This document shows, piece by piece, positions 54,103-60,100 of a stretch of 64,000 nt of DNA. Origin of the DNA: Zootoca vivipara (lineage: Eukaryota); the NCBI RefSeq assembly GCF_963506605.1, contig NC_083277.1:93434001-93498000 (forward strand), in the 5' to 3' direction. Each line of letters begins with the position of its first letter. Position 1 is the first letter of the stretch. Position numbers: made by a program.

Positions 54103-57100
54103 GCCTCCAGGCAGCTCAAGGTGGCCTACATAGTTATCCCCCTCTCCAGAATATTATCCTGGCAACAATCCTTTGAACCGGTGTTATGTACTGAGCTGAA
54201 TCCTAGAACAATAGGATTCAGAATCAGCGGGAGCTACCCAATCCAACTCCAGGTGGAAGTGAATCCGCAACCTGATTGGCCTGCGGGAGCAGCCAATCAG
54301 GCGGCTGGCAGAAGTGAATCTGCTACCTGATTGGCCTGTAGGAGCAGCCAATCAGGCTGCAGGCAGAAGTCAATCCACAATATAATTGGCCCACAGGTGT
54401 AGCCCTGAAGTAGCCAATCACGCAAGGCCCATTGTGTAAATAATGTATATAAGCAGATGGTTTTGGGAAAAGAGCCATTCGTCTTCTCTTCTTCTCCTTG
54501 ATGAATATGAGCTGAATAAAGAGCATGAAATTCACTCTCGACTCCGAGTATATTTCACTGGCGACGAAGGTGGGATCCTGCTGAGCTGACCGCCACCACG
54601 CACTGCACCGCAGCACCGCCACCTGCTGCACCGCTGCATCGCACCGTGCATCCAGGCTTCAGCTCCAGGACCCAAGGAACCCAGAATGGCAACCGACAGC
54701 AGCTTCTTGCCATTCAAACCAGCATCAGGAGACTGGGAAGGGTACGCCGCCCGTTTCAACTTCCTCCTGCAAGCGAAAGAAGTCACCAACGATGCCATGA
54801 AGAGGGCGACATTCTTCAGCGTCTGTGGAGAGGAGACGTTTGAAATCGCCCGGGCTCTCCTTGCACCTAGAGATGTCGCTACCGTCTCTTACAAAACAAT
54901 AATGGAACGGCTGAAGGAGCACTTTTCACCACAGCCCTCGGTGGTAGCTTGCCGAAATGCCTTCTACGCAAAGCGGCAAGCCCCGGGGGAAACCATAACT
55001 GGGTTTGTGACCTCCCTCCGCCAAGCCGCCCGGTTATGCAACTTCTCAGAGTTGGAGAACATGCTTCGTGACCGCCTCGTCGGTGGCCTGAGGGACGAGA
55101 TGTTGCAACGACGCCTCTACGCCAAAAAAGACCTCACGTTCCAGATTGCTCTGGAGGAAGCCCTGGCAACCGAAGCCGCCGAGAGGTCAACGCAAGAGGC
55201 ACGACCGGCCCCGCCATCCCAACCGAGGGTCTACCACGAAGACCTCACCGACGAATCCGAATCTGACAGGGAGGAAGTACACCGAGTACAGCGGTGCACT
55301 CAAGCAGCACACACACCACAGCAGCCTCGACGAGAAGGAGGGAACTGTGCAAGCTGCGGGGAGAACCACGAGAGGAGGACCTGTCGTTTCCGCAACGCAG
55401 AGTGCAGGCAGTGCAGAAAATTGGGACACATCGCCCGGGTGTGTCGGGCTCGACTCACCCGTCGACAAGCATCAGATGACCGACCCAGGAGCCCCAGGTC
55501 ACACGGCACCATGCACCAAGGCAACTCGACGGAGATCACGGACTACCAGGTATTCCAGTTGCCCCATCCCAGCACAGAGAAAATTTATATAGAGGTACAG
55601 ATAGAGGGAGCCCCATGCCGCATGGAGCTGGACACGGGTTCAACTCTATCCATAATCTCGGCCCGAACATTAAGGGAACTGTGCCCTAATGGGGGTCCCA
55701 AACTAAGGCCGGCCCCATTCACCCTCCGGGACTTCCAGAAACGTAAGGTCCCTACAATGGGGGTGGGGACCTTCAGGGTGCAATATCGAGGGCGAAAGCA
55801 ACAATTGGACTTGCTGGTAGTTAAGGGCCCCTACGTTAGCTTACTGGGACTGGCATGGTTTGGACCTCTGGGGCTAGCCGTTACCGGGGTGAACCGCACT
55901 AGCTTACAAGTGGACGTGGACGCCATATGCAAAGAGTTTCCAGGGGTTTTCGATGGAGCATTGGGACGATATACAGGACCCCCCATTGCCCTACAGCTAG
56001 ACCCCGCTGTACGACCCATCAGGCACAAGGCCCGCCGGGTCCCGTTCGCCCTGAAACCCCGCATAGACGAGGAATTGGACCGGCTCGTGGAGCAAGGAGT
56101 GTTGGAGCCGGTGCCCAACGCCCCCTGGGAAACTCCAATTGTCACACCCGTCAAGCCTAACGGTTCGGTCCGCATCTGTGCAGACTACAAATGCACCATA
56201 AACAAGGCTCTCACGGCCCATGCATACCCAGTGCCAGTGGTCAGCCATGTCCTCGCCACCCTGGCTGGGTCAAAAATCTTTGGCAAACTGGACTTGGCCC
56301 AAGCGTATCAACAGTTGCCTGTGGACGAAGCCACAGCAGAGGCTCAGACGATTGTGACGCACAGAGGGGCATTCAGAGTAAAGCGGCTGCAATTTGGCGT
56401 TAGCGTGGCACCAGGCATATTCCAGAATCTAATGGACTCTCTCCTTAAAGGGATTCCTGGCGTCACCCCCTTCTTCGATGATGTACTGATCGCCGGGCCC
56501 ACACCAGAGGAATTTGAGGACCGCCTCCGCTCCGTCCTGCACCGTTTCCAGACGGCGGGCCTCAAGGTGAAGCGGGAAAAGTGTTTACTGGGAGTGCCGC
56601 AGGTGGACTTTCTGGGATTTAAGGTGGACGCAGAAGGGGTCCATCCAACCGGTGACAAGGTACGGGCCATTTGTGAGGCCCCAGCGCCCAAGAGCAAGCC
56701 CGAACTTCAGTCATTCTTGGGACTATTGAACTTTTACCATGCCTTCCTTCCCCATAAGGCAGCGGTAGCGGAGCCCCTACACAGACTCCTAGATAAAAGG
56801 GCCCCTTGGGTGTGGGGCCAGCGACAAAGGGCCGCATTCCAGGCAGTCAAGGACTTGCTCGTCTCGAACTCGGTCTTGGCACACTTCGACGAGAGGCTGC
56901 CAGTGGTGCTGGCATGCGACGCCTCTCCCTATGGCATCGGCGCTGTCCTGGGACACCAACTCCCGGATGGAAGAGAGGTGCCGGTGGCATACTTCTCCCA
57001 GACGCTTGCTGCAGCCGAACGAAACTACTCACAGATTGACAAGGAGGGTCTGGCAATCGTGAAGGGCGTAAAAAAATTCCATGATTTCTTGTACGGGCGG

Positions 57101-60100
57101 CCCTTTACCATAGTGACTGACCACAAGCCGTTGCTTGGCCTGTTTGCCCCCGAGAAGCAGACCCCCCAAGTGTTGTCTCCACGTGTCCTCAGGTGGTCAA
57201 TTTTCCTTGCCGGCTACCAGTATGCACTAATCCACCGCCCTGGGAAGGCGATGGGCCACGCAGACGCACTCAGCAGGCTACCACTACCAGAAACAGGCCC
57301 CGACCCAGCGCCTGCGCAAGAGGTTATGACCCTGGAGCTGCTTCCCGACCGACCCATTCAGGCACAAGAAGTTGCGCACCATTCCACAAAAGATAGGGTC
57401 ATCTCCCGGGTCCTGGACTGGGTGTGGCGAGGATGGCCCAGCAGCAGCCCCGGGCCAGAATTCGCTGGCTACACAAACCGCAAACATGAACTGTCGGCCC
57501 ACAAGGGGTGCCTGTTATGGGGAAGCAGGGTTGTTGTTCCCCAGCCCCTCCGCAAAAGGGTCCTCACAGCCCTACACGAGACACACCCAGGGGTAGTGAG
57601 GATGAAGGCCCTTGCCAGGAGTTATGTGTGGTGGCCGGGGATTGACAGAGAGATAGAGGCCTGGGTCCAACACTGCCAGACCTGCCAAGAATCCCGCCCG
57701 GATCCCCCAAGGGCCCCAGTCCAGCCCTGGGAGTCCGCCCGACATCCATGGTCACGCTTGCACGTGGACTTCGCTGGCCCCTTCCAGGGAAAAACATTCT
57801 TCATAGTGGTGGATTCCTACACCAAATGGCTGGAGGTCGCACTGGTACCGTCCACTTCTACGGCGGCAGCCATCCGGGTACTACGTAAGCTGTTTGCAAC
57901 CCACGGGCTCCCTGACACCCTCGTCTCGGACAATGGAACCGCATTCACGTCAGAGGAGTTCCAGACCTTCACAGCGCAGAACGCCATCCGCCACATCCGC
58001 TCAGCACCATTCCACCCTGCCACCAATGGCCAAGCGGAGCGCATGGTGCGGACCACCAAGGACAGCCTCCGCCGCATAACACAAGGGGACTGGGAATACC
58101 GCCTTGCCGCATTTCTTCTAGCACAGCACAGCACCCCAAGCACAACGACGGGCCGGAGCCCAGCTGAACTACTCATGGGCCGGCGCCTTGCAACTAGACT
58201 GGACCGACTTCACCCCGACAGAGCTCAGGATGAGGTAGTGGTGGGGAAAGGCAGGAACCCCCGGACATTTGTGGCCCAGGACCCAGTGTATGCAAAGAAT
58301 TTTGGGGCAGGCCCAGCATGGGTACCCGCCACAGTCACCAAGGTGACCGGTCCCGTGTCGTACGAGGTACTAACGGAAGGGGGGCAATGTTGGCGCCGCC
58401 ACTGCGACCAGCTACGGCGACGATTCCCAGGAGGAACCCGGGAGGAGAGCGGGACAGAGGGGTCCCAAGGGGACAGCAGGGCAGTGAGGCCTGTAGAGCG
58501 AGAGGGGTGGGCAGGGGAAGCAGAAGCAGTAGGCACAGAGGGGCGCCCCGAGGCTGGAAGGACACCGGAACCAGAGTCACAACCTAGTGGTTCAGTGGCG
58601 CCAGACCAGACAGCCCCGGCACAGCCAGCAGCCTCGGAACACGAGCCAGAACCAGAACCCCTGACCAAGGAACACCCCAGGCCACAACGCACACGGAGGC
58701 GGCCAGCAGACCTTGGGGACTACGAATGCAACTTCCCGGGCAGGACTGGAACTTAGAGGGGAGGGGTGTTATGTACTGAGCTGAATCCTAGAACAATAGG
58801 ATTCAGAATCAGCGGGAGCTACCCAATCCAACTCCAGGTGGAAGTGAATCCGCAACCTGATTGGCCTGCGGGAGCAGCCAATCAGGCGGCTGGCAGAAGT
58901 GAATCTGCTACCTGATTGGCCTGTAGGAGCAGCCAATCAGGCTGCAGGCAGAAGTCAATCCACAATATAATTGGCCCACAGGTGTAGCCCTGAAGTAGCC
59001 AATCACGCAAGGCCCATTGTGTAAATAATGTATATAAGCAGATGGTTTTGGGAAAAGAGCCATTCGTCTTCTCTTCTTCTCCTTGATGAATATGAGCTGA
59101 ATAAAGAGCATGAAATTCACTCTCGACTCCGAGTATATTTCAACCAGATTAGGCTGAAAGACAGTGAGTGGCCCAAAATCGACCATATCCAACCAATAAA
59201 TTGCTTCGTTCTATAGGAAAACCAGTACTGTACTCCCAATTTTGTTTTGAGCCACACCCTCATGGCAGCCATTTTGTGTCAAGCCGCACGCCTTTTGGCA
59301 GCCATTTTGTGACCAGTGCGCATGACATTCTCTCAACATTCCAAATATGCCACCTGGCCGAATAAAAGTTGGGTGACCTCTGTGCTGAAGGCAGTAATAA
59401 TAAAGTTGCTACCATATAACCAGCAGGGGGCGCTTGTTCTGCTAAGAGTTTGGTGGCAAAGGACGTTTGTCAAGTACAATTTTGCCTACTGGAAGTGTTA
59501 AGAGCCATCTGCTTCCCTCTCCCACACATCACATTATAAAAAAGTATTTATTTAAAACATGCTATAACTGTTCTATTTGTAAAAATTCTAAGTGGCTTAC
59601 AAAGGGAAACAAATACACCCCCAAATGAATTCAAAAATACATTTGTAAGAAGAAAAAGAACAAGAAGAAAACAGTGTGAAAAAGCCACCAAAGGTTTACC
59701 TAAATAAAAATAACATATATAGAAGCCAATTGCCTCAATCCATGGTAATGTGGACAGTGAAGCAGACAGAAGCTTGATAAAAGACTGCAGTCCTGTGCAC
59801 TCTTTACCATTTGCAAAACAAGCTACATGAAATGCAGTAGGATTTACTTCTAAGTAGACATGGCTAGGTGGGAATTGTGTGCCCAACTTCAGGTTTTCAA
59901 AGTGTTTCATGTTCATCATCTCAATAATCTTTAAAACAGCCTCGCATGGTAGGTCAGTAGAATACCCTCACCCTGAAAGCCATAGTTTACCTAAGCTCCT
60001 GAAATCTGAATTTGTAGTAGAGGTTGATCACAGATTTGAACAGCTCAATTCAAGCCCAAACTGGGTTTTTTTGGGGGAAATGCCTCAAAATGCAGTATTG

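What the first reader, a model, noticed from the sequence alone, without database searches (positions are those of the whole stretch)
54182..59142. Intact, very young Mag-like Gypsy LTR retrotransposon, potentially still active and polymorphic
Seen: both 376-bp LTRs look identical by manual comparison. The 4071-nt gag-pol ORF has no stop or frameshift, PBS and PPT are intact, and the element keeps abundant CpGs while the host flanks are CpG-depleted. Known: LTRs are identical at insertion, and the double knuckle CX2CX3HX4C + CX2CX4HX4C with a tRNA-Ser PBS is typical of the Mag lineage. Inference: a recent insertion of a replication-competent family, possibly insertion-polymorphic or horizontally acquired.
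Basis: partly seen in the sequence, partly recalled or inferred. Interest (0 to 1): 0.75.

Follow-up and report, generated by a model that had tools for sequence, protein, structure and literature searches.

The report
Young intact Gypsy retrotransposon in lizard
A complete and apparently recent copy of a Gypsy-type jumping gene lies in non-coding DNA of the common lizard genome; it is an ordinary member of a family already annotated many times in that species.

Summary
Window 54182-59142 (+) is a 4,961-bp LTR retrotransposon. Its two 376-bp LTRs are identical (376 of 376). It has one uninterrupted 1,356-codon gag-pol ORF, a PBS-like site and a polypurine tract. CpG o/e is 0.63, against 0.25-0.48 in the flanks. 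The domain order is PR-RT-RNase H-IN and the best solved-structure match is Ty3 Gag-Pol, so it is a Ty3/gypsy element. It has no env and no chromodomain.

The host is Zootoca vivipara. A neighbouring MYCBPAP exon is 100% identical to that species' protein. A Z. vivipara "K02A2.6-like" protein differs from this ORF at 5 of 1,356 residues and heads a 90%-identity cluster of 133 sequences. The family is therefore multi-copy and recently active.

Relatives that are 94-95% identical in the pol core occur as partial models in Podarcis and Lacerta. This favours vertical descent in Lacertidae over recent horizontal arrival.

Three points stay open. Zero LTR differences only bound the age to under about 1.7-5 My. 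The target-site duplication matches at 4 of 5 bases. "Mag lineage" and "tRNA-Ser" fit published Mag traits but could not be tested against reference sequences. Polymorphism, DNA copy number and assembly correctness are unchecked.

Verdict: real, but ordinary, and a new member of a known kind.

The parts
54177..54181 (+). left copy of the putative 5-bp target-site duplication (ACCGG)
   Evidence: matches the right copy at 4 of 5 positions; the mismatch lies in a CpG
54182..54557 (+). 5' LTR, 376 bp, TG...CA ends
   Evidence: 376 of 376 identical to the 3' LTR
54256..54391 (+). 2.5 copies of a 55-bp tandem repeat in U3. It holds 6 of the LTR's 7 CCAAT/ATTGG pentamers and is the putative enhancer/promoter array.
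   Evidence: 83% matches between units; 7 pentamers in the LTR against 0.78 expected from 2,000 shuffles, shuffle maximum 5
54446..54451 (+). TATA-like box in the LTR
   Evidence: sequence motif only, promoter function inferred
54515..54520 (+). AATAAA polyadenylation signal in the LTR (its copy in the 3' LTR would be the one used)
   Evidence: motif only, function inferred
54559..54576 (+). putative primer-binding site, an 18-mer beginning TGG, one base after the LTR
   Evidence: identity of the primer tRNA not tested (no tRNA gene in the window)
54686..58756 (+). single gag-pol ORF, 1,356 codons plus stop, uninterrupted
54686..55585 (+). Gag part (aa 1-300): capsid-like region and nucleocapsid
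   Evidence: Retrotrans_gag E 6e-4, 20.4 bits, below the 24.1 cut-off, aa 57-137; the nearest Atlas clusters for the homologue P0001 carry Retrotrans_gag, Ty3_capsid and zf-CCHC, scores 0.90-0.94 (a lead only)
55346..55444 (+). two CCHC zinc knuckles (aa 221-233 and 240-253)
   Evidence: all eight Cys/His are invariant in 30 of 30 aligned relatives
55589..55858 (+). aspartic protease (aa 302-391), DTGS at aa 316-319
   Evidence: gag-asp_proteas E 0.0014, below cut-off; the Asp is shared by 111 of 120 relatives
56183..56626 (+). reverse transcriptase (aa 500-647), active-site box FFDD at aa 596-599
   Evidence: RVT_1 9.1e-19; Ty3 RT/RNase H 4ol8, 7.5e-64; the two Asp in 112 and 114 of 120
56813..57217 (+). 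RNase H (aa 710-844)
   Evidence: RT_RNaseH_2 2.6e-33, RT_RNaseH 1.1e-31; D745, E787, D812 shared by 118, 119, 118 of 120
57536..57700 (+). integrase zinc-binding domain (aa 951-1005)
   Evidence: Integrase_H2C2 1.5e-17
57746..58018 (+). integrase catalytic core (aa 1021-1111 by Pfam); D1028, D1082 and E1118 have the D,D-35-E spacing
   Evidence: rve 6.7e-14; shared by 111, 115, 110 of 120
58349..58369 (+). GPY/F-like motif of the integrase C-terminal module (aa 1222-1228)
   Evidence: G, P, Y shared by 91, 85, 86 of 120; the motif name is from PMC2774666 passages
58406..58753 (+). Pro/Glu-rich C-terminal tail (aa 1241-1356), no chromodomain
   Evidence: no Chromo hit at E up to 10
58755..58766 (+). 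polypurine tract, 12 purines, overlapping the stop codon by 2 nt and abutting the 3' LTR
58767..59142 (+). 3' LTR, 376 bp
59143..59147 (+). right copy of the putative target-site duplication (ACCAG)

Best explanation
This is a full-length autonomous Ty3/gypsy (Metaviridae) LTR retrotransposon without env. Its traits fit the Mag lineage. It inserted recently into non-coding DNA of the Zootoca vivipara genome, downstream of MYCBPAP and an epsin-like ENTH exon.

Shown by the sequence:
- identical LTRs;
- one uninterrupted gag-pol frame coding capsid-like Gag, two CCHC knuckles, protease, RT, RNase H and an integrase with zinc, D,D-35-E and GPY/F modules;
- a PBS-like site and a polypurine tract;
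- membership of a multi-copy family with near-identical annotated copies in the same species.

Inferred from established retrotransposon biology:
- RNA is made from the U3 promoter of the 5' LTR (CCAAT array plus TATA box) and ends after the AATAAA of the 3' LTR.
- It is translated as one Gag-Pol polyprotein that the protease cleaves. Because there is no frameshift or stop between gag and pol, any excess of Gag would have to arise after translation.
- A host tRNA annealed to the PBS primes minus-strand DNA, and the polypurine tract primes the plus strand.
- The integrase inserts the copy with a 5-bp duplication.

The family most likely descended vertically within Lacertidae and stayed active, or was active until very recently, in the Zootoca lineage.
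For: - Structure: LTRs 376 of 376 identical, TG...CA ends, PBS, PPT; ORF without stops.
- Domains: (RVT_1, RNase H, Integrase_H2C2 and rve all above their cut-offs, in the order PR-RT-RH-IN).
- Closest solved structure: Ty3 Gag-Pol 7q5b, E 4e-88 over aa 438-1166.
- Catalytic residues match the states shared by 110-119 of 120 relatives.
- Both knuckles are invariant in 30 of 30 relatives.
- Family: one search lists P0001 [Zootoca vivipara], a cluster of 133 member sequences. BLASTP gives 99.63% identity, 5 differences in 1,356 residues without gaps.
- Host: a MYCBPAP exon is 100% identical to Z. vivipara and 98% to Podarcis lilfordi and Lacerta agilis.
- Relatives in Lacertidae: core identity is 94.7% (Podarcis raffonei P0005) and 94.3% (Lacerta agilis P0023). 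The clade has 100 of 100 NJ bootstraps. A further 7 of the 120 listed shorter hits are 85% identical or more: 4 P. raffonei, 2 P. muralis, 1 unnamed.
- CpG.
- Published Mag-lineage traits (PMC3286476 Table 1, passages read): lengths mostly 4-5 kb, one or two ORFs, PBS Ser in 16 of 21 rows, 5-bp duplication in 20 of 21 rows.
Against: - The target-site duplication matches at only 4 of 5 bases. One flank change beside 0 changes in 752 LTR bases is unexpected. My rough weighting puts about 4% of mutational opportunity in the duplication (inference).
- The LTRs are short, so zero differences allow an age of up to about 1.7-5 My (assumed rates).
- The protease and Gag Pfam matches fall below the curated cut-offs.
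How many are full length, and how close they are, is therefore unknown.
- No DNA-level census of copies was possible, no reads were available to check the assembly, and no orthologous locus from other lacertids could be examined.
- The Mag placement rests on traits, not on a tree with reference elements.
Confidence: 0.85

Rival explanations
1. The LTR identity and intactness are not a sign of youth. They would come from assembly or polishing with reads from other copies of a high-copy family, or from gene conversion between the two LTRs of an older insertion.
For: The family is multi-copy (cluster of 133), which is the setting in which collapse or cross-polishing occurs. The 4-of-5 target-site duplication shows at least one flank change while the LTRs show none.
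Against: The internal 4.2 kb is also uninterrupted and keeps all catalytic residues. CpG o/e stays at 0.63 against 0.25 in the left flank. The element differs from the cluster representative at 5 residues, so it is not simply that copy pasted in. The junctions with unique flanks are clean (the flanks are unique in the window apart from a microsatellite).
Confidence: 0.07
2. The family arrived in Zootoca by recent horizontal transfer from a parasite, prey species or another vertebrate.
For: In the wider clade a Rhipicephalus microplus element nests inside the squamate sequences, so transfer has probably happened somewhere in this group. PMC13465657 (passages read) used Z. vivipara as its lizard and reports 73 horizontal-transfer regions overlapping Gypsy across six species, lizard among them.
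Against: The nearest relatives are lacertid: Lacerta agilis and Podarcis at 94-95% in the pol core, in a clade with 100 of 100 bootstraps. That is lower than a host exon between the same genera (98%), as expected for vertical descent. The nearest non-lacertid named sequences are geckos at about 77%. The tick sequence is 55% identical over the full length. CpG o/e of 0.63 suggests long residence in a CpG-methylating genome (inference).
Confidence: 0.05
3. The ORF is a host gene domesticated from a retrotransposon; NCBI models it as a gene, 'K02A2.6-like'.
For: Source names include 'Gypsy retrotransposon integrase-like protein 1' and gene-style LOC identifiers.
Against: It has identical flanking LTRs, a PBS and a PPT. 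It has 133 clustered paralogous sequences, and its relatives in sister genera are partial or low-quality models. These are marks of a mobile family, not of a single-copy conserved gene.
Confidence: 0.01

Closest known systems
Mag lineage of Ty3/gypsy (Mag of Bombyx mori, SURL of sea urchins, Jule of Xiphophorus; Culex Mag-lineage families in PMC3286476)
   Same: It is a compact element of 4,961 bp with gag-pol only, no env and no chromodomain. It has a single ORF (Culex Mag rows have 1 or 2), a 5-bp target duplication (20 of 21 Culex Mag rows) and a PBS that begins TGG. The lineage is reported in vertebrates (PMC6238403, PMC8220671, PMC4131045, passages read). Frog Mag-like elements average about 4 kb (PMC4131045, Table 1).
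   Different: Its LTRs, at 376 bp, are longer than any Mag row of the Culex table (119-304 bp). No reference Mag, SURL or Jule sequence could be obtained through the tools, so the defining phylogenetic placement is untested. The Jule paper (Volff 2001) was not read; what I say of it is recalled and taken from reference lists.
Ty3 of Saccharomyces cerevisiae (PDB 7q5b, 4ol8)
   Same: It is the best solved-structure match: E 4e-88 over RT, RNase H and integrase. The domain order is the same.
   Different: Ty3 has separate, frameshifted GAG3 and POL3 and one zinc knuckle (recalled). This element has one frame and two knuckles.
Other 'K02A2.6-like' Gypsy families of lacertids, geckos and snakes (P0002-P0120)
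   Same: Same architecture and the same Pfam set. They form one squamate-rich clade with 100 of 100 bootstraps, which also includes one tick pair.
   Different: They are distinct families. The next full-length relatives are only 61-62% identical (P0002 unnamed, P0003 Lacerta agilis). Z. vivipara itself carries at least three further clusters (P0013 53%, P0020 55%, P0039 52%).
Vertebrate chromoviruses (Amn-san and similar) and Gmr1
   Same: Both are Ty3/gypsy elements found in amphibians and reptiles (PMC4131045 passages).
   Different: This element has no chromodomain. Its integrase lies after RNase H, not before RT.

Membership tests
Ty3/gypsy (Metaviridae) LTR retrotransposon | two direct LTRs with TG...CA ends | tested here: met
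   376-bp LTRs, 376 of 376 identical
Ty3/gypsy (Metaviridae) LTR retrotransposon | pol order protease - RT - RNase H - integrase | tested here: met
   aa 302-391, 500-647, 710-844, 951-1111. The protease match is below its cut-off, but DTGS is present.
Ty3/gypsy (Metaviridae) LTR retrotransposon | RT/RNase H/IN closest to Ty3-type enzymes | tested here: met
   7q5b Ty3 Gag-Pol E 4e-88; 4ol8 E 7.5e-64. Retroviral and caulimoviral enzymes score much lower.
Ty3/gypsy (Metaviridae) LTR retrotransposon | PBS after the 5' LTR and polypurine tract before the 3' LTR | tested here: met
   (sequence only; priming not shown)
Ty3/gypsy (Metaviridae) LTR retrotransposon | target-site duplication of 4-6 bp | tested here: inconclusive
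   ACCGG against ACCAG, 4 of 5. The chance of 4 or more matches in 5 is 16/1024 (my arithmetic).
Mag lineage | groups with Mag, SURL, Jule and the A/B/C-clade references in RT/RNase H/IN trees (how the lineage is defined in PMC6238403, PMC8220671 and PMC3286476) | not testable with these tools
   No tool returns reference elements by name. The tree holds only database relatives. 0 papers link 'K02A2.6' with Mag.
Mag lineage | PBS complementary to tRNA-Ser (or Leu) | not testable with these tools
   PMC3286476 Table 1 gives Ser in 16, Leu in 4 and Arg in 1 of 21 Mag rows. Here there are 0 tRNA genes in the window, and the PBS tables of PMC13524379 are closed supplements. The 18-mer has the layout expected of a tRNA 3' end (inference).
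Mag lineage | 5-bp target-site duplication | tested here: inconclusive
   20 of 21 Mag rows in PMC3286476 Table 1 have 5 bp. Here the 5-mers match at 4 of 5.
Mag lineage | compact gag-pol element of about 4-5 kb, one or two ORFs, no env | tested here: met
   4,961 bp and one ORF. Only 10 nt lie between the stop codon and the 3' LTR.
   The arrays are present and invariant in 30 of 30 relatives. Whether this state defines Mag could not be checked: the per-lineage table of PMC2774666 is an additional file, and supplements are closed.
Chromoviruses | chromodomain at the integrase C-terminus | tested here: not met
   no Chromo match, even at E up to 10 on the last 251 residues
Gmr1-like elements | integrase upstream of RT | tested here: not met
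   integrase follows RNase H
Errantiviruses / endogenous retroviruses | env ORF after pol | tested here: not met
   no room after pol. The other ORFs inside the element overlap gag-pol; they were not scanned for domains.

The most novel reading that the evidence does not exclude
The family is still transposing in Zootoca vivipara, so this very insertion is polymorphic among individuals or between the oviparous and viviparous lineages. In addition, the wider 'K02A2.6-like' clade has crossed between hard ticks and squamates at least once: a Rhipicephalus microplus element nests inside the squamate sequences.
Probability: 0.3. Interest if true: 0.45.

Novelty: new member of a known kind. Interest (0 to 1): 0.25.

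Why it matters
Intact, recently inserted LTR retrotransposons are expected in squamates, whose transposable-element families are reported as mostly recently active (PMC5381603, passages read). NCBI already models this family's ORFs as a protein, 'uncharacterized protein K02A2.6-like'. The locus could serve as a presence/absence marker for population work in a species studied for its transition between egg-laying and live-bearing. It is also a clean type copy for describing the family (LTR, PBS, single-frame gag-pol). It opens no new mechanism.

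Tried and rejected
Copy number therefore rests on the cluster size alone.
- The protein-atlas search did not hold the window's Gag piece. As the tool suggested, I used the stored homologue P0001, residues 1-300. It gave Gag-like leads only.
- A PDB sequence search with Gag alone gave only non-significant nucleocapsid matches, E 0.68-7.
- Rfam at gathering threshold gave 0 matches in the window.
- Papers sought for Mag traits were not held: Bowen & McDonald 1999 and Michaille 1990.
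- Searches for 'K02A2.6' gave 24 papers, none on classification in the listing. 'K02A2.6' with Gypsy and Mag gave 0.
- I looked for coding exons beside the element. Of 117 ORFs of 45-89 aa between 47 and 64 kb, 2 had weak matches below their cut-offs and 115 had none. ORFs of 90 aa or more near the element had none.
- I looked for a paralogous uninterrupted copy of the insertion site. The flanks are unique in the window apart from an (ATA)n run.
- Rejected readings: chromovirus, Gmr1, errantivirus, domesticated gene (see Membership tests).

Full report
**1. The observation**

The repeat finder reports a 100% direct repeat with an offset of 4,585 nt. Extending it base by base gives an exact repeat of 378 nt at 54180-54557 and 58765-59142. 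The first two bases (GG) precede the canonical TG, so the LTRs are 54182-54557 and 58767-59142. They are 376 bp each, have TG...CA ends and are identical at 376 of 376 positions.

The window has no N. A BLASTN of the element and a TBLASTN of its protein against the window find only the element itself. Other interspersed repeats of the window are 60-97% identical between copies, so the LTR identity stands out.

One ORF runs from 54686 to 58756: 4,071 nt with the stop, 1,356 codons and no internal stop. One base after the 5' LTR lies an 18-mer beginning TGG (54559-54576). A 12-nt purine run (58755-58766) overlaps the stop codon by two bases and abuts the 3' LTR.

CpG observed/expected is 0.63 in the element. 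It is 0.25 in the 10 kb to the left, 0.48 in the 4.9 kb to the right, and 0.34 in the 54,181 bases upstream of the element. The contrast is real but not unique: the bins at 12-14, 18-20 and 60-62 kb reach 0.59-0.65.

One detail differs from a textbook insertion. The flanking 5-mers are ACCGG and ACCAG, 4 of 5 matching, with the mismatch at a CpG.

**2. What it codes**

Pfam places the domains as follows, in that order:
- a protease-like stretch at aa 302-391 (below its cut-off, but with DTGS at 316-319);
- RVT_1 at 500-647;
- RNase H at 710-844;
- Integrase_H2C2 at 951-1005;
- rve at 1021-1111.

The best solved-structure match is the Ty3 Gag-Pol polyprotein (7q5b, E 4e-88, aa 438-1166). Foamy-virus, retroviral and caulimoviral enzymes score far lower.

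The N-terminal 300 residues give a sub-threshold Retrotrans_gag match (E 6e-4, 20.4 bits against a cut-off of 24.1). They hold two zinc knuckles, CX2CX3HX4C at 221-233 and CX2CX4HX4C at 240-253. All eight Cys/His are invariant in 30 of 30 aligned relatives from lizards, snakes, frog, fish, ticks, insects and nematodes.

For the near-identical homologue P0001, residues 1-300, the nearest Atlas clusters carry Retrotrans_gag, Ty3_capsid and zf-CCHC (scores 0.90-0.94, a lead only).

The catalytic residues match the states held by 110-119 of 120 relatives: protease Asp, the two RT Asp, three RNase H acidic residues and the integrase D, D, E. The RT box reads FFDD. Phe at its first position is the minority state (20 of 120, against Tyr in 93).

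There is no chromodomain and no room for env: 10 nt separate the stop from the 3' LTR.

**3. LTR anatomy**

The LTR holds 2.5 copies of a 55-bp tandem repeat (54256-54391). It has seven CCAAT/ATTGG pentamers, where 0.78 are expected (maximum 5 in 2,000 shuffles). A TATA-like box lies at 54446 and an AATAAA at 54515. Reading these as U3 promoter and enhancer, R and a short U5 is inference from the usual LTR layout.

**4. Host and neighbourhood**

The window is not human. An exon-sized ORF of MYCBPAP (4796-5122) is 100% identical to the MYCBP-associated protein of Zootoca vivipara, 98% to Podarcis lilfordi and Lacerta agilis, and 81% or less elsewhere.

Four ORFs matching MYCBPAP lie on the + strand between 20 and 6974. 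A whole ENTH domain lies in one ORF at 27949-28617.

Around the element no recognisable coding exon was found. Of 117 ORFs of 45-89 aa between 47 and 64 kb, 115 had no Pfam match and 2 had weak matches below their cut-offs. Longer ORFs there had none. The insertion is therefore in non-coding DNA, and whether that is intron or intergenic is not settled.

**5. The family**

Of 650 proteins with E up to 0.001 (7,999 candidates scored, 120 listed), the top hit is 'uncharacterized protein K02A2.6-like [Zootoca vivipara]' (P0001), which stands for a 90%-identity cluster of 133 sequences. The table rounds its identity to 100. BLASTP gives 99.63%, which is 5 differences in 1,356 ungapped residues: 2 in Gag, 1 in RT, 1 in IN and 1 in the tail. 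At least one other near-identical full-length copy is therefore annotated in the species.

The next full-length relatives are only 61-62% identical (P0002 unnamed, P0003 Lacerta agilis). Partial models from Podarcis raffonei (P0005) and Lacerta agilis (P0023) are 86-89% identical over their local alignments, gaps included, and 94.7% and 94.3% in the RT-RNase H-IN core.

Among shorter proteins (319 with E up to 1e-30, 120 listed), 7 are 85% identical or more: 4 from P. raffonei, 2 from P. muralis (one flagged low quality) and 1 unnamed.

I made a neighbour-joining tree of the core (729 columns; 118 of 121 sequences kept, with 3 dropped for less than 80% coverage). Window + P0001 + P0023 + P0005 form a clade in 100 of 100 bootstraps.

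The family is thus shared by three lacertid genera. It is less conserved than a host exon between the same genera, which is what vertical descent of a family predicts. Full-length models at high identity are seen only in Zootoca among the rows listed.

**6. Age**

Zero differences in 376 bp give a 95% upper bound of 5.0, 4.0 or 1.7 My for 0.8, 1.0 or 2.4e-9 substitutions per site per year (the rates are assumed from memory). 'Very young' is therefore compatible with the data but not demonstrated at fine scale.

Retained CpGs and five amino-acid differences from another copy point the same way. The imperfect duplication points mildly the other way, or to a base error, and remains unexplained.

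**7. Lineage**

The Mag lineage is defined by RT/RNase H/IN trees (PMC6238403, PMC8220671 and PMC3286476, passages read). No tool returns reference Mag, SURL or Jule sequences, so this could not be tested.

The published traits fit. In the Culex table of PMC3286476, Mag-lineage rows are mostly 4-5 kb with one or two ORFs. The PBS is Ser in 16, Leu in 4 and Arg in 1 of 21 rows, and the duplication is 5 bp in 20 of 21 rows. In the frog genome the four Ty3/gypsy types are Amn-san (a chromovirus), Cer (about 7 kb), Gmr1 and Mag (about 4 kb) (PMC4131045, Table 1). This element lacks the chromodomain and the Gmr1 domain order, and it is compact.

The tRNA-Ser assignment could not be checked. There is no tRNA gene in the window, and the PBS tables of PMC13524379 are closed supplements. 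The per-lineage CCHC and GPY/F states of PMC2774666 are also in additional files that I could not see. I therefore call the element Mag-like by traits, with membership untested.

**8. Literature on novelty**

Twenty held papers contain 'Zootoca vivipara', 'transposable elements' and 'LTR'. Fifteen were listed, and none of the listed titles or abstracts describes this family.

PMC10058329 (abstract only) describes a SINE and a Tc1/Mariner fragment.

PMC13465657 (passages) used Z. vivipara and reports Gypsy-overlapping horizontal-transfer regions in six species, lizard among them. Its tables, which might include this family, are closed supplements.

PMC5381603 (passages) states that most anole TE families appear recently active.

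**9. Verdict**

This is a real, complete, recently inserted Ty3/gypsy element of a multi-copy family of the common lizard. It most likely descended vertically within Lacertidae. It is ordinary for a squamate genome.

- DNA-level copy number;
- solo LTRs;
- empty sites in conspecifics and relatives;
- expression;
- assembly correctness.

Noticed in passing
related proteins P0008 and P0007: A Rhipicephalus microplus 'K02A2.6-like' protein (cluster of 41) and an unnamed relative nest inside the otherwise squamate clade. Squamates plus this pair are recovered in 100 of 100 bootstraps; squamates without it in 0 of 100. A subclade with Euleptes, Podarcis, Zootoca, Lacerta and Eublepharis is recovered in 87 of 100. 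Core identity to Lacerta and Eublepharis is 72-73%. Further R. microplus hits from another source are 68-70% identical to the query. This may be an old tick-squamate horizontal transfer. Caveat: the tree holds only the 120 best of 650 hits.
   Followed up: partly
related proteins P0015, P0050, P0078, P0094: The soft tick Ornithodoros turicata groups with three Trichinella sequences (94 of 100 bootstraps) as sister to the squamate clade. The distribution is patchy and rich in parasites.
   Followed up: no
window 54177-54181 and 59143-59147: The target-site duplication is ACCGG against ACCAG, with the single mismatch at a CpG. It sits beside LTRs that show 0 differences in 752 bases, a combination I cannot fully explain.
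   Followed up: partly
window 54238-54418 (and 58823-59003): The LTR carries seven CCAAT/ATTGG pentamers (0.78 expected), mostly as inverted pairs inside 2.5 copies of a 55-bp tandem repeat upstream of a TATA box. This looks like a CCAAT-box (NF-Y-type) promoter array; function is inferred only.
   Followed up: partly
window 56471-56482 (aa 596-599): The RT active-site box reads FFDD. Phe at the first position is the minority state among relatives (20 of 120; Tyr in 93).
   Followed up: yes
window 20-6974 (+): Four ORFs match the MYCBPAP family (E 1e-4 to 7.5e-19), so the 3' part of MYCBPAP lies here. One exon is 100% identical to the Z. vivipara protein.
   Followed up: partly
window 27949-28617 (+): A complete 124-residue ENTH domain (E 3.3e-54) lies in a single ORF. 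It is an epsin-like gene exon or a retrocopy.
   Followed up: no
window 17758-20000: A GC-rich (0.61), CpG-rich (o/e 0.62) block holds a 382-aa ORF on the minus strand without any Pfam match. It may be a CpG-island promoter or first exon.
   Followed up: no
window 1066, 9678, 29423, 38303, 44833, 51534, 60296, 62403: A palindromic, MITE-like repeat of about 150 nt occurs in 5-8 copies, 62-93% identical. One copy (60296-60444; hairpin arms 58 nt, 88% complementary) lies 1.15 kb downstream of the element.
   Followed up: no
window 240-413, 8927-9100, 11050-11128, 22026-22198: SINE-like repeats with tRNA-like heads, 62-91% identical between copies.
   Followed up: no
window 54058-54102: A perfect (ATA)15 microsatellite lies 80 bp upstream of the insertion site.
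   Followed up: no
window 60001-62000: A stretch with raised GC (0.53) and CpG o/e (0.59) lies just downstream of the element. It has several ORFs of 100-190 aa and no Pfam match.
   Followed up: no
related proteins P0083, P0069: Some database gene models fuse this kind of pol to host domains: an FKBP15 model in Erythrolamprus reginae, and a model with a 7tm_3 domain in Heteronotia binoei. These are probably annotation chimeras over insertions.
   Followed up: no
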